DNA of 64,000 bases from the NCBI RefSeq assembly GCF_009914755.1, contig NC_060944.1. One strand, given 5' to 3'. Below are positions 7,704 through 26,042 of this stretch, one piece after another; position 1 is the first letter of the stretch; every line of letters starts with the position of its first letter. This stretch comes from the human T2T-CHM13v2.0 reference genome, Homo sapiens. Both the position numbers and the translations under genes were made by a program. Under the pieces are notes generated by a model. It was not told the DNA's origin and searched no databases. It saw nothing but the letters and a program-made list of their open reading frames with translations.

Positions 7704-8051
<348 letters not shown>

Positions 8052-8217
8052 TAGATGTATGAAGAGCTTCATTTAGATAACTCTAGAGGCTAACCCTAGG
8101 AGTTATTAGAAAACATCCGAAGGAAAAGATGAACAGATTTGATGACAAATAACAAGCGAGGAAAAATTATTTGCAACAAATAAAATAGCCAGAGGGTTAT
8201 CGTTTCTATGTAAATAT

Positions 8218-8299
8218 TTAGATTGGTGCAAAAGTAATTGCGGTTTTTGCCATTAAAAGTAATGCGGCCAAAACTGCAGTTACTTTTGCACCCACCTAA
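8218..8299. mobile_element. MADE1 (Hsmar1-derived MITE)
   Basis: ~80-bp palindrome of mariner TIRs (TTAGaTTGGTGCAAAAGTAA...TTACTTTTGCACCcACCTAA) followed by TA. Confidence 0.92.
8224..8293 (+). ncRNA. MIR548O2: miR-548-family pre-miRNA hairpin (likely mir-548o-2)
   Basis: 5p arm AAAAGTAATTGCGGTTTTTGCC (8230-8251) pairs with 3p arm CCAAAACTGCAGTTACTTTTGC (8268-8289); arms match recalled miR-548o sequences. Confidence 0.8.
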
Positions 8300-9165
8300 T
8301 ACATCAAACAAAGTGCTAAGAACAAGAATTAGGCCTAGTAGATAAATGGACAAAGGATAAGAGTAAATGATTGCAAAAGAAAAGAGTGTTCATGCATACT
8401 AGCTATCCAGGAAAATACAGATGAAAATGCATTTGGGACCATTCTCATGTATATCATTAAAAAGCAAATTATACCTTTAGTGAGCCATTCTTTTAAGCTG
8501 TTTTTCACATTTTAGATATATGAAAAGTCAATTTTTTAACCTGTTGAAAGGCAGTGATTTATAATATTTTCTAAAATATTTATGTATACTTATTAATGTA
8601 CAGTTAATATGTTAGCTCTGATTAAGTTTGGCTGCCACGTAACAACCAAAAATCCTATTGTAAACAAGATAGCTTATTTTCACATATGTTAAATCTAGGG
8701 CTAGGCAGTGTAATGGTTCCATCACCAGCAGGGATCCAAGGCCCTTCCATCTGGTGGCTCTCCATTCTTTGCACAGTGCCTCATGGGCCATGATGGTTGA
8801 GTGAGTTCCAAACATCCTGTCCAGGAATTAGGAAGGAAGGAGAGTCTGCATATAATTGGTCCTTTAAGAAGATCTCTTAGAAGACCTACCCAACAGTCAC
8901 CAACTTCTTTATGGTCAAAATATGGCCACATCTAGGTGCAAAGGGAGTTTGAAAATTGAGTCATTTTTTTTCTGGGTAGCCATGTCCATCTAAAGTTTGT
9001 GTTCTGTTACTCAGGAAGAAATAGTGAGTAGATACTGAGAGGCAACTAGCAATCTCTGCTATAGTCTATGTGTCCCAAGCCTTCACTAGGTTACTGGGAG
9101 AAATTTTCTGATCATATATTTTGACCTATGAAGAATAATTTCATTTGTCTTTTTTTTTTTTTTAA

Positions 9166-9438
<273 letters not shown>

Positions 9439-9444
9439 TAATAG

Positions 9445-9795
<351 letters not shown>

Positions 9796-11900
9796 TAACC
9801 CCTTCCAGCTGAAGTAACAGAACTTAAGAAGTTTTCCTCCCTGTTCTTTTTATGTATGTTCTATGAGGTTTGGCCTTTTGTCTGGTTTTATTAGACATAC
9901 TTAAGGTTAGTCACATTTTGTTGAATCAGATTTCTTTCAGTAGGTGACCTGGAAGTTCCCTTCATGTCAGCCAGGATAATAAAATTTATATAAAGAATTA
10001 AAAATTCGAACTGGAAATTTACAAGAAGTGTTTTCGATTTTGACAGCCATTCACTCATTAGTATATGTAAACATCAGAAAATTTTTGCTTCACACTACAC
10101 TCTGACCTCTCAAATTTTAGTCTAGAGAACTTTATTTCAAGGGCACACTTTCAAAAATATTATTTGCTTTTTAACTTAATAAAATTGATTGGTGGAGAAT
10201 TAATAACTCAACCCTGATATCTTCATTTAGATTTTATTATAAAAAGGAAACTGTCTAAGAGCTGGTGGTTTTTTTTGTCATCTTAACTATTATATTTGAA
10301 AGTAATGGCATAGGGTGCAGGATGGATGGGTGGGGTAGGGCACAATGTTTTGAATATTTATAATATGTCTTAGAGAGCTGAAAAATGACAATGGCTGGCA
10401 TTTATTGAGCTGCTGTTACTATTGGCCAGGTACTGTGATATATGCATTAATGAGTGTATTGATTGTTTGGTAAGAAACCACTCTTCTACTGGGGTTGGAA
10501 ATAGATCAAGACAAAAAGATGTCTAATTAGTTTATGTATCTCTAGGGAGACTGTCAGTTCCAAGGATAAAACTAATACAATGACCAGAAGGGTCTCTGCT
10601 TTCTCTCAGAAATGAATTCTTAGCTGTTACTATAATTCTTAGCTATTATTATTATCATCTCAGAACTAGGATCTATGTCTGTGAACATTATACTCGTAAT
10701 TATTTTGAATATTCTTACAAATCTTTAATTTAGAAAAGTTGTGAATATAAAGATTTTTGGGAATATAATTTGAGAATGCCATGGTTGAGTTTAGGGATGT
10801 CTTTGCTTGCTTTATTTTGTTCAAATTCAGACACTTTATATTCTTCCATTTTCATATTATAATTTTATCCACAATTTGAAAGTAGTGCTTCTGGGATAGG
10901 TAAATGTGCTTACTTACAATAAGTGAAAACTTTAAAAAAATGACTATTGGGTTATTCTTGTCTTTATGTTCATGTACCTTGTATTTTGAGTTTTCTGTAC
11001 CATGTTTATATTTATTAATTTGCATTTTCTAGAATGAATCAGTCCTATTTTTCTTTTTTCTTTTTGTTAAGATGTAATTCTTACAATGTAACTTTTGGGT
11101 ATAGAGCTGTTGACACTGAAATCTGTGAATCTAGAATGGCTCAACCTGTTGCTTGGTTGGTGGGCTTGCTTAAAGGGAACTTATAGATCTTTTTGCTCTC
11201 CAGGGAGTTTGTAACAGCTTTGCTCACCCTCTTGCACCAGAAGATAAAAACCAGACTTCAAATCATACGTGAACAACATCTTACTTTAAAATTTTTCCTT
11301 GCTGGGGAGAGGATAGAAGCTCCTTTTCTCCTCATTGTGTTCAGAGATGATAAAGGCTGTTACATTACCCAGGAGATATGAGGTGTCCAAATAGTTAAAG
11401 GGGTTAGAATGCTAGGTGCCAATCTTGAGGTCTCAAGTCTGGTGGGAGGCATGGGTATATTAACTGTTTTTTAAGTACTGGCTGCCATCAAGGAATTCTG
11501 CCATGCAGTTCACCTCTAACTTAAAGTGTTTGCTTCTTTGAACTGGTTAGCTTTTGATTTACATGACAGTACACTGTGCTTTGTAAAAGTAACATTGAGC
11601 TGGGAAGGGTTAATGAACTAAAATTTTAATGCACGTTATGGGCACTTCAAAACCTCAGTTCTTTGTAGTTGTGTAATTTTCTTCGTTCATTGTTTTGCAT
11701 GATACAAAAATCATAATTTTGGACCTGAATGCACAATTTCCTATGTTTTTGAACTAGCTTGTGGTATCGTAAAGCTTTTAATTTAACTTTTAAAAAGCTA
11801 AAAAGCTTCTTAATTTATTGTAAAATTTCACCATCTTTAAAGTATTTTATAATTACTACTGTCCTTTGATTTGTTTCCATTTATTTCTATTATCTTGCAG

Positions 11901-11936
11901 CATCTTTTATCCAAATTCTTCTTTCTTATAAATCTT
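11901..11936 (+). CDS. RALGAPB: Candidate alternative 36-nt RALGAPB cassette exon (adds 12 aa; junction reads T-ASFIQILLSYKS-S-ITT)
   Basis: AG-free pyrimidine-rich tract + ttgcag| acceptor, |gtaagt donor; phase 1-1 matches the flanking exons; no stop codon. Confidence 0.7.
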
Positions 11937-13135
11937 GTAAGTAGGAACCAGAAGCTTCTCCTTAATTGCAGTCATGTTTTTATTTTTTTCATAATTCCAT
12001 TAAAAATTTGATTGTCATTGTCTCTTGTAGTTTTTGCACTTGGGAAGAAAAATACTTTTCTGTGTTTTGAATGGGGAAGATTGTTGGCAAGAGCAAATTA
12101 ATCTGCCTGAATCAGTCCCATTATTTCTGTATACTAGTCTGGTCATGTCATGAATTCCAGGACTTTGCACTAACTGTGTTTTGGCTTTTTTTTTTTTTTT
12201 TTTTTTTAAAGCTTTAAGCTTATTTTTATACAGATTTAGTGTTTGATTTGTATGCATTCTGCATGTAGTGTTTTTCAAATGTATTATTGCTGGATAGCTT
12301 ATTTAGGACTAAAAATGGCTCATGGGAAGTTGCATAAAGATTTATGCTTGACTCTGTATTCTATTAAATCTATTATAAAATAATTTAAGCATTTCATGTA
12401 GAGTAATAAAAGATTTCAGAGTGATTTTCAATACACTGTGAAATCTTTTGTTAAAAATAAAAGCAACTTTCAAAGGGCTTCTGTTTCAGTGATAACAAAT
12501 GACCATGATAATCTTTTTTATCAATCCAATTTTCTGATTTATCAGCCTCAAGTTAGCTGCTGTCTGTGGTTGTTAAAATTCATTCTCATTTTGCTTGGTT
12601 GAGCGATTCTTTGGTGTGTGTTTTGGAGTTGGGTGGGTGGTGGGAATGCTCTCTTTTTCTCCCTGCCCACTTCTCATCCTTACTTTGCCCTCTCCCTAAA
12701 GTATACAGACTGGCATAGGGTTGCCCATTTAATTAGGATGTCCATCTGGGGTAATGTGTAAATTGCAGTAGCTATTTTTCTTAACGTTTAAGCATCATTC
12801 TGTAGGGGGAAGAAAAAACAGAAAAGAAATAATAGAAAAGCCAAATTCTGTATTATATATCTGTATGTGGATACAGATATATACAAATGTACTCTGCTGA
12901 TCAAAAATTCAGTTGAAAAATGCTTCTTGTACCATCTGTTAAACTGACAATGCCACTGTAAATTAATTGTAACCTATTTTCAAAGAAGATTTCAGAGAGC
13001 CCTTTTTAAAAATATTAAGACATAGTTGCTAAACAAAAGCACTTATTGGATTCAAGTAGCTATTTAATGACACCAATATTTGATCTTTGTGTCCAGGGTC
13101 CCATGAGCCTACGTGGCATATTGCAAATATAATAA

Positions 13136-13537
<402 letters not shown>

Positions 13538-26033: not shown

Positions 26034-26042
26034 GATCGACAG
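26034..26042 (+). CDS. RALGAPB: Candidate 9-nt RALGAPB microexon GATCGACAG (adds G-S-T)
   Basis: 53-nt AG-free pyrimidine tract with TGC at -17..-15, tag| acceptor, CAG|gtataa donor; phase 1-1, in frame. Confidence 0.7.

What the first reader, a model, noticed from the sequence alone, without database searches (positions are those of the whole stretch)
11901..11936. Candidate 36-nt in-frame cassette exon (ASFIQILLSYKS) in an Alu-free intron
Seen: no AG between 11843 and 11898, then ttgcag|36 nt|GTAAGT (consensus donor). Phase 1-1 fits the exons ending at 9661 and starting at 13158, and there is no stop codon. Nearby motifs are TGCATG at 11696 and 12260 (RBFOX) and ACTAAC at 12169 (QKI). The 3.5-kb host intron has no recognisable Alu or L1, unlike most long introns here, which suggests constraint. 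Inference: a tissue-regulated (neural or muscle) hydrophobic 12-aa insert in a disordered region just before the RRKGS motif.
Basis: partly seen in the sequence, partly recalled or inferred. Interest (0 to 1): 0.7.

Follow-up and report, generated by a model that had tools for sequence, protein, structure and literature searches.

The report
Known neuronal 36-nt RALGAPB alternative exon
This is a real but already catalogued 36-base alternative exon of the human RALGAPB gene that adds twelve amino acids almost unchanged from sharks to humans and is switched on as brain neurons mature; what the extra peptide does is still unknown.

Summary
Window 11901-11936 (+) reads ttgcag|36 nt|gtaagt, has a 60-nt AG-free run upstream, is phase 1-1 and has no stop. 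It turns ..MT-A-ITTQ.. into ..MT-ASFIQILLSYKSS-ITTQ...

It is not new.
- RefSeq already lists 11901-11936 as an exon of other RALGAPB transcripts (hub table).
- Li et al. 2015 found a 36-nt RALGAPB micro-exon in GTEx brain, muscle and nerve RNA-seq.
- Weyn-Vanhentenryck et al. 2018 list a mouse 36-nt Ralgapb exon with matching intron geometry. It is marked known AS and under selection. Inclusion in cortex rises from 3% at E14.5 to about 60% from P15, and it is a predicted direct Rbfox target.

In 176 fetched orthologue proteins, 96 carry the insert. The core SFIQILLSYKS is identical in 67 of those 96, from chimaera to mammals, and is more conserved than its flanks.

His motif evidence is at chance level. 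QKI, muscle specificity and "disordered region" stay untested. The function of the insert appears unstudied.

The parts
11901..11936 (+). 36-nt phase 1-1 cassette exon of RALGAPB. It encodes (A)SFIQILLSYKS(S), is 75% pyrimidine and carries five TCTT.
   Evidence: Sequence and translation. RefSeq exon of other transcripts: hub table. Li 2015 Supplemental File 1. Insert present in 96 of 176 orthologue proteins.
11843..11900 (+). 3' splice region. It holds an AG-free run, a pyrimidine-rich tract and ttgcag. Branch-point-like yUnAy sites have their A at 11849, 11869 and 11883.
   Evidence: The branch points are consensus matches only and were not tested.
11937..11944 (+). 5' splice site gtaagtag. 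Intron positions +1 to +6 match the consensus, but the exon side is CTT instead of MAG.
   Evidence: The consensus is recalled, not taken from a call.
9445..9661 (+). Upstream constitutive exon, ending ..NRDSSMT plus the first base of a codon.
   Evidence: It maps to PDB 9qwp chain B residues 435-506.
13158..13359 (+). Downstream constitutive exon, starting in phase 1 and encoding [14 protein letters not shown]..
   Evidence: It maps to PDB 9qwp chain B from residue 508.
9662..13157 (+). Host intron of 3496 nt, 33% G+C, with no similarity to the rest of the window.
   Evidence: Rfam found no family at gathering score in 7800-13400.
12260..12265 (+). TGCATG 324 nt downstream of the exon. It is the best-placed candidate RBFOX enhancer site.
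   Evidence: Its function is inferred. Which site the published Rbfox call rests on was not seen.
11696..11701 (+). TGCATG 205 nt upstream of the exon. With GCATG at 11449 and 12261, it makes up the only three GCATG on the + strand of the intron.
12169..12174 (+). A single ACTAAC 233 nt downstream.
   Evidence: 27 observed against 33 expected in the window. No TAAY half-site follows within 20 nt in the sequence; the bipartite QKI motif definition is recalled.

Best explanation
Window 11901-11936 is a genuine, ancient alternative cassette exon of RALGAPB. RALGAPB encodes the non-catalytic beta subunit of the RalGAP complexes.

Splicing. The exon is mostly skipped early in development. The likely reasons are that it is very short (36 nt), has a non-consensus exon side at its 5' splice site (CTT|GTAAGT), and is itself pyrimidine-rich. 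As cortical neurons mature, RBFOX proteins promote its inclusion, most plausibly by binding (U)GCAUG in the flanking intron. Inclusion then reaches about 60%.

Protein. Inclusion inserts twelve residues, so that A becomes ASFIQILLSYKSS. The site is at about residue 473, between two helices of the N-terminal HEAT-repeat region of RalGAP-beta. This lies upstream of the part (aa 576-1494) that suffices to activate the alpha subunit in vitro. The insert therefore most likely changes regulation, partner binding or localisation of the complex in mature neurons, and not catalysis.

Shown: the exon, its frame, its annotation, its inclusion in human and mouse RNA-seq, the developmental switch, and the conservation of the peptide.
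Published prediction: direct Rbfox control.
Inferred: which motif acts, why the exon is skipped by default, and what the peptide does.
For: Sequence anatomy.

Annotation: the hub table lists 11901-11936 as an exon of other RALGAPB transcripts.

Human RNA: Li 2015 Supplemental File 1 ('Predicted novel micro-exons') has hg19 chr20:37148882-37148918, + strand, 36 nt, RALGAPB. It was discovered in 307 brain, 74 muscle and 47 nerve GTEx samples.

Mouse (Weyn-Vanhentenryck 2018):
- Dataset S5 row 259 is exon CA-228850-30624-32676-32712-33917, which is 36 nt long. It lies 2052 nt after the upstream exon and 1205 nt before the downstream one. The human distances are 2240 and 1222 nt.
- It is marked coding, known AS 1, under selection 1, module M1 and core member.
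- PSI in cortex is 0.03, 0.09, 0.24, 0.30, 0.46, 0.64, 0.62, 0.60 and 0.58 from E14.5 to 21 months. A second frontal-cortex series agrees.
- Dataset S9 gives Rbfox 1 and Mbnl, Nova and Ptbp 0.

Conservation:
- Of 176 fetched orthologue proteins, 96 have the insert, 69 lack it and 11 are truncated or aberrant.
- The core is SFIQILLSYKS in 67, TFFQILLSYKS in 22, TFIQILLSYKS in 4, TFFHILLNYKS in 2 and TFVQILLSYKS in 1.
- Carriers include a placental cluster of 1637 members, marsupials, birds, reptiles, amphibians, gar, bichir, paddlefish, teleosts and the chimaera Callorhinchus.
- Mean identity to human is 0.945 in the core, against 0.81 and 0.66 in the 12 residues on either side.
- In the chimaera the residue after the core is C, and the skipped form in a shark (Heptranchias) has G at the junction. 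This is what a conserved phase 1-1 split codon predicts.

Structure: 9qwp chain B has one residue between the two flanking exons, so it is the skipped form. RalGAP-beta aa 576-1494, or the hug domain 973-1118 alone, suffices for GAP stimulation.
Against: - The splice signals alone are not beyond chance: six look-alike sites occur on the + strand.
- TGCATG is not enriched in the window. The nearest downstream site is 324 nt away, and I could not check its conservation.
- The Rbfox call is a Bayesian-network prediction. I saw no CLIP or knock-out values for this exon, and I did not establish whether '1' also encodes direction.
- Neither RALGAPB micro-exon is in Li 2015's list of 145 brain-specific micro-exons; the gene name occurred in Supplemental File 1 only. 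Inclusion may therefore not be confined to brain.
- Identity of the hg19 entry and of the mouse exon with window 11901-11936 rests on gene, strand, length and spacing, not on aligned DNA. The spacing to the 9-nt micro-exon differs by 12 nt between hg19 and this assembly.
- Most orthologue isoforms are automatic gene predictions.
- The structural setting of the insert is unknown, because the fold had mean pLDDT 38.
Confidence: 0.92

Rival explanations
1. It is a chance pseudo-exon, or an artefact of automatic annotation that is never meaningfully spliced in.
For: Six sites on the + strand of the window meet the same splice-signal criteria. Many orthologue isoforms are predicted models.
Against: - The exon was detected independently in human RNA-seq.
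- Mouse cortex PSI reaches 0.64 in two data series.
- The 11-residue core is identical in 67 of 96 insert-bearing proteins from chimaera to mammals, and is more conserved than its flanks.
Confidence: 0.02
2. The exon is real and neuronal, but RBFOX is not its main driver. Loss of PTBP repression, or QKI, MBNL or other factors, would set its inclusion, and the published Rbfox flag would be a false positive.
For: - The exon and the 50 nt before it hold 6.98 TCTT per 100 nt, against 1.29 in the intron. That is a PTB-like signature; the motif is recalled.
- The paper attributes late (M1) switches mainly to Mbnl, and early ones to Ptbp, Nova and Rbfox.
- The nearest downstream TGCATG is 324 nt away.
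- One ACTAAC lies at +233.
Against: - The same integrative analysis scores Ptbp, Mbnl and Nova as 0 and Rbfox as 1 for this exon. The paper states a specificity of 95-98%.
- All three GCATG on the + strand of the 3.5-kb intron lie within about 450 nt of the exon.
- ACTAAC is not enriched.
Confidence: 0.2
3. The constraint acts on the RNA or DNA, for example a splicing-regulatory or other nucleic-acid element, and the encoded peptide is incidental.
For: - Regulated alternative exons are often conserved at the nucleotide level together with their flanks. The 'under selection' flag is based on synonymous and intronic conservation (Methods passage).
- The intron is free of intra-window repeats.
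Against: - The reading frame, the exact 12-residue length and the split-codon phase are kept across jawed vertebrates.
- The changes seen are conservative (S/T, I/F/V, Q/H, S/N).
- No Rfam family was found in 7800-13400.
Confidence: 0.06

Closest known systems
The RefSeq alternative exon of RALGAPB at this position, and its mouse counterpart (Zhang-lab exon CA-228850-30624-32676-32712-33917)
   Same: Same gene, strand, 36-nt length and position between the same two exons. The intron split is similar: 2240/1222 nt in human against 2052/1205 nt in mouse. Rodent proteins carry the same 12-residue insert (hub table).
   Different: Nothing found. The identity with the mouse and hg19 entries is inferred from geometry, not from aligned DNA.
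RBFOX-regulated micro-exons of 51 nt or less in brain transcripts (Li et al. 2015, PMC4317164)
   Same: The exon is 36 nt, frame-preserving, alternatively spliced and highly conserved. It appears in that paper's own list of newly found micro-exons. The mouse exon is a predicted Rbfox target.
   Different: It is not in that paper's list of 145 brain-specific micro-exons. The flanking UGCAUG sites lie 205 and 324 nt away, not immediately next to the exon.
SRRM4/nSR100-dependent neuronal microexons of 3-27 nt (Blencowe-lab definition; Dupas et al. 2026, PMC12868881)
   Same: A short, frame-preserving, neuron-enriched exon in the same gene, which also has a microexon studied in that paper.
   Different: At 36 nt and 12 residues it is above the 3-9 residue range of the exons targeted there. 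The Ralgapb microexon of that paper is therefore a different exon, probably the 9-nt one at window 26034-26042. That last step is inference.

Membership tests
Alternative cassette exon of a protein-coding gene | Bounded by AG and GT, with both inclusion and skipping forms in transcripts | tested here: met
   The sequence is ttgcag|exon|gtaagt. RefSeq has transcripts with and without it (hub table). Mouse PSI ranges from 0.03 to 0.66. Both forms are predicted in the same species, for example Rhinatrema, Podarcis and Polyodon.
Alternative cassette exon of a protein-coding gene | Frame-preserving, with no stop in the frame used | tested here: met
   36 nt, phase 1-1, no stop. It is marked 'coding' in Dataset S5.
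Micro-exon, Li et al. 2015 definition (51 nt or less) | Length of 51 nt or less | tested here: met
   36 nt. It is listed in their Supplemental File 1.
Microexon, 3-27 nt definition (as used by Dupas et al. 2026) | Length 3-27 nt, inserting 1-9 residues | tested here: not met
   36 nt and 12 residues. The paper's targets insert 3-9 residues.
RBFOX-activated neuronal exon | (U)GCAUG in the downstream intron near the exon | tested here: inconclusive
   One TGCATG lies at +324 and another at -205. The motif is not enriched in the window (29 observed against 37.5 expected). However, all three GCATG of the intron lie near the exon. Conservation of the sites could not be checked.
RBFOX-activated neuronal exon | RBFOX binding (CLIP) and RBFOX-dependent inclusion | not testable with these tools
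   I saw only the published summary flag Rbfox = 1 at FDR<=0.01 for the mouse exon. I did not see the underlying CLIP or knock-down values.
RBFOX-activated neuronal exon | Inclusion rises during neuronal maturation | tested here: met
   From published data: mouse cortex PSI is 0.03 at E14.5 and 0.64 at P15, in module M1 as a core member.
QKI-regulated exon | ACUAAY core with a UAAY half-site within about 20 nt (definition recalled), plus QKI-dependent splicing | tested here: not met
   There is a single ACTAAC at 12169, and no TAAY within the next 20 nt of the sequence. The motif is not enriched (27 observed against 33 expected). No QKI data were found.

The most novel reading that the evidence does not exclude
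The invariant SFIQILLSYKS insert could be a neuron-maturation-specific docking or packing element. Possible forms are an amphipathic helix or strand, or a short linear motif. The F-x-x-I preceded by S/T-rich sequence resembles an LC3-interacting motif, but that resemblance is recalled and untested. Such an element would rewire the partners, localisation or regulation of the RalGAP complex without touching its catalytic core. It would give mature neurons a distinct mode of Ral control in a gene linked to autism cohorts. No paper found in searches addresses the function of this insert.
Probability: 0.35. Interest if true: 0.5.

Novelty: already known. Interest (0 to 1): 0.2.

Why it matters
As a discovery it does not matter much, because the exon is annotated and sits in two published catalogues. 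It is worth a note for two reasons.

First, a twelve-residue insert that has stayed almost letter-perfect since the common ancestor of sharks and humans, and is switched on as cortical neurons mature, is very likely to do something specific. It lies in a tumour-suppressor and neurodevelopmental gene, and nobody appears to have tested it.

Second, the solved RalGAP structure and the biochemistry read here used the form without the insert. The neuronal form of the complex therefore remains uncharacterised.

Tried and rejected
1. Structure prediction. I folded an 887-residue fish orthologue that carries the insert (P0134) with a 30-sequence alignment. Mean pLDDT was 38 and pTM 0.30. The model shows a helix over the insert, but at pLDDT 25-38, so I drew no conclusion about order or disorder.

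2. Earlier findings of this scan were not open to the session.

3. Two papers that mention RALGAPB near 'splicing' were irrelevant. One was an allelic-expression table and the other a cow transcript table.

4. The supplement of a Snap23 microexon paper on MBNL/QKI/RBFOX2 in muscle did not mention Ralgapb.

5. The original 2014 Rbfox target paper is not in the searchable library; only papers citing it came up. I therefore could not see direction, CLIP or motif scores.

6. The Dupas 2026 'Ralgapb microexon' was considered as the same exon and rejected on size. Its library table was not among the supplements held.

7. Rfam found no family at gathering score in 7800-13400.

Conservation of the splice sites, the GCAUG sites and synonymous positions was therefore not tested.

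9. The protein search centred on the insert returned no lamprey, hagfish or invertebrate protein carrying it. This is weak evidence only that the exon arose in jawed vertebrates.

Full report
**1. The observation**

Window 11901-11936 on the + strand reads CATCTTTTATCCAAATTCTTCTTTCTTATAAATCTT. It is preceded by ttgcag and followed by gtaagtag.
- The RefSeq exon ending at 9661 ends on the first base of a codon, and the exon starting at 13158 begins in phase 1.
- The 36 nt are therefore phase 1-1. In the frame used they read A-S-F-I-Q-I-L-L-S-Y-K-S, then a split Ser codon, with no stop.
- Skipping gives ..[21 protein letters not shown]... Inclusion gives ..RDSSMT-ASFIQILLSYKSS-ITTQ...
- TGCATG at 11696 and 12260 and ACTAAC at 12169 are present.
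- The 3496-nt host intron has no similarity to any other part of the window. The seven other introns of 3 kb or more have 6-37% of their bases matching elsewhere, which is the signature of interspersed repeats.

All sequence statements are confirmed.

**2. Is it more than chance?**

The splice signals alone are not.
- I scanned for YAG, at least 70% pyrimidine in the 20 nt before it, an AG-free run of 30 nt or more, 9-60 nt of exon, then GTAAGT. Six sites on the + strand and two on the - strand qualified. Two of the six have a length divisible by three.
- TGCATG (29 observed, 37.5 expected from shuffles) and ACTAAC (27 observed, 33 expected) are not enriched in the window.
- One mild point in favour: the + strand of the host intron has only three GCATG (11449, 11697, 12261), and all lie within about 450 nt of the exon. 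This was noticed after the fact and is not a formal test.

**3. What it is**

The hub's RefSeq table already lists 11901-11936 among 'exons of other transcripts' of RALGAPB. Two published catalogues also contain it.

*Li et al. 2015 (PMC4317164).* I read Supplemental File 1 part 1 and searched it, read the legends file, and read passages of the main text.
- The authors mapped 307 brain, 74 muscle and 47 nerve GTEx samples to find micro-exons of 51 nt or less that were absent from Ensembl 70.
- Their list of 310 'predicted novel micro-exons' includes hg19 chr20:37148882-37148918, + strand, 36 nt, RALGAPB.
- The same file lists a 9-nt RALGAPB micro-exon 14,145 nt downstream. In this window a 9-nt exon with splice sites lies 14,133 nt downstream, at 26034-26042.
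- The two spacings differ by 12 nt, which I attribute to small indels between assemblies. The identification is therefore an inference from gene, strand, length and spacing.

*Weyn-Vanhentenryck et al. 2018 (PMC5989265).* I searched Datasets S5 and S9, read their first parts, and read passages of the main text.
- They list mouse exon CA-228850-30624-32676-32712-33917 in Ralgapb. It is 36 nt long, 2052 nt after the upstream exon and 1205 nt before the downstream one. The human distances are 2240 and 1222 nt.
- Dataset S5 marks it as coding, known AS, under selection, module M1 and core member.
- PSI in cortex is 0.03 (E14.5), 0.09 (E16.5), 0.24 (P0), 0.30 (P4), 0.46 (P7), 0.64 (P15), 0.62 (P30), 0.60 (2 mo) and 0.58 (21 mo).
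- A second frontal-cortex series runs from 0.03 to 0.66.
- I did not establish whether the value 1 also encodes the direction of regulation.

**4. Conservation**

I ran two protein searches. The first used the upstream exon's translation. The second used a 43-residue window centred on the insert in a rodent orthologue. Together they returned 176 RalGAP-beta proteins or fragments.
- 96 carry the insert, 69 lack it, and 11 are truncated, intron read-through or aberrant models.
- The 11-residue core is SFIQILLSYKS in 67, TFFQILLSYKS in 22 (carps, loaches, characins), TFIQILLSYKS in 4 (axolotl and a herring relative), TFFHILLNYKS in 2 (anchovy) and TFVQILLSYKS in 1 (a trout).
- Carriers include a placental cluster of 1637 member sequences, marsupials, birds, lizards, snakes, turtles, an alligator, frogs, a caecilian, gar, bichir, paddlefish, many teleosts and the chimaera Callorhinchus.
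- Mean identity to the human residues is 0.945 in the core, against 0.81 and 0.66 in the twelve residues before and after it. Over 35 distinct local sequences the figures are 0.958, 0.81 and 0.64.
- In the chimaera the residue after the core is Cys, and the skipped form in a shark has Gly at the junction. This is what a conserved phase 1-1 split codon predicts.
- Many species have both forms predicted.
- No lamprey, hagfish or invertebrate protein with the insert was returned. That is weak evidence only.
- Most of these proteins are automatic predictions. Their value lies in showing that the coding potential and the splice phase persist in the genomes.

**5. Protein context**

The only solved structure with this protein is 9qwp chain B (1528 residues). 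The upstream exon maps to residues 435-506 and the downstream exon to residues from 508, leaving one residue between them. It is therefore the form without the insert.
- In the rodent orthologue the junction alanine is residue 473.
- I read passages of the cryo-EM paper (PMC12311180). [quoted passage not shown]
- It also shows that aa 576-1494, or even the hug domain 973-1118, suffices to stimulate the alpha subunit, and that residues 29-65 mediate beta-beta dimerisation.
- The insert lies outside all of these regions. A role in regulation, partner binding or localisation is therefore more likely than a role in catalysis. This is inference.
- My own fold of an insert-bearing fish orthologue was too poor to use, with mean pLDDT 38.

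**6. How it most likely works**

The exon is far below the usual exon size, its exon side of the donor is CTT and not MAG, and it is 75% pyrimidine with five TCTT. Default skipping is therefore expected; this is inference from recalled consensus. Against this, the intron side of the donor is a perfect GTAAGT, and the acceptor has a long AG-free pyrimidine-rich run with three branch-point-like sites. The published model calls the exon a direct Rbfox target, and RBFOX proteins rise as neurons mature. The TGCATG at +324 is the best-placed enhancer candidate, but I could not test it.

A rival is that relief from PTBP repression, or another factor, drives the switch.
- For the rival: the TCTT density, and the paper's remark that late switches are mainly Mbnl-driven.
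- Against the rival: the zero scores for Ptbp and Mbnl.
- I put this rival at about 0.2.
- QKI has nothing behind it beyond one unenriched hexamer.

**7. Comparison with known kinds, and novelty**

This is the annotated exon itself, so it is already known.
- It meets the 51-nt micro-exon definition of Li et al.
- It does not meet the 3-27 nt definition of the Blencowe laboratory.
- The 'Ralgapb microexon' whose deletion altered neurogenesis timing in Dupas et al. 2026 (PMC12868881; I read the abstract, passages and two sections) inserts 3-9 residues. It is therefore another exon, probably the 9-nt one at 26034-26042.
- Four full-text searches found no paper on the function of the twelve-residue insert: RALGAPB with alternative splicing and exon; with microexon; with splicing; and RalGAP with splice variant.
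- Supplements of papers I did not open may hold more data on it.

**8. Verdict**

Interest is low as a finding. What remains open is the function of a peptide that has been kept almost unchanged for the whole history of jawed vertebrates.

Noticed in passing
window 26034-26042 (+): A 9-nt micro-exon GATCGACAG (tag|exon|gtataa, phase 1-1) would add Gly-Ser-Thr after ..RDY. It is not in the hub's RefSeq exon list. Li 2015 lists a 9-nt RALGAPB micro-exon at hg19 chr20:37163027-37163036, and a rodent orthologue (P0015) carries RDYGST. It is probably the Ralgapb microexon studied by Dupas et al. 2026.
   Followed up: partly
junction of window exons 7853-8031 and 9167-9315; orthologue proteins such as P0017 and P0026: 34 of 176 fetched orthologue proteins (reptiles, amphibians and others) carry a 16-residue alternative insert of the form GVA.F...ERLP.Y after SCLVDAFL. 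tblastn found only the flanking exons in the human window and no counterpart of the insert.
   Followed up: partly
window 9662 onward; proteins P0002, P0003, P0013: Some database proteins, including UniProt 'isoform 2' of mouse RalGAP-beta (490 residues), end in a read-through translation of this same host intron straight after the exon ending at 9661. This suggests intron retention or early polyadenylation products.
   Followed up: no
window 8224-8293: The annotated MIR548O2 hairpin gave no Rfam match at gathering score when 7800-13400 was scanned.
   Followed up: no
window 12184-12207: A long T run lies about 250 nt downstream of the cassette, between the ACTAAC and the downstream TGCATG. 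It is a likely source of length differences between assemblies.
   Followed up: no
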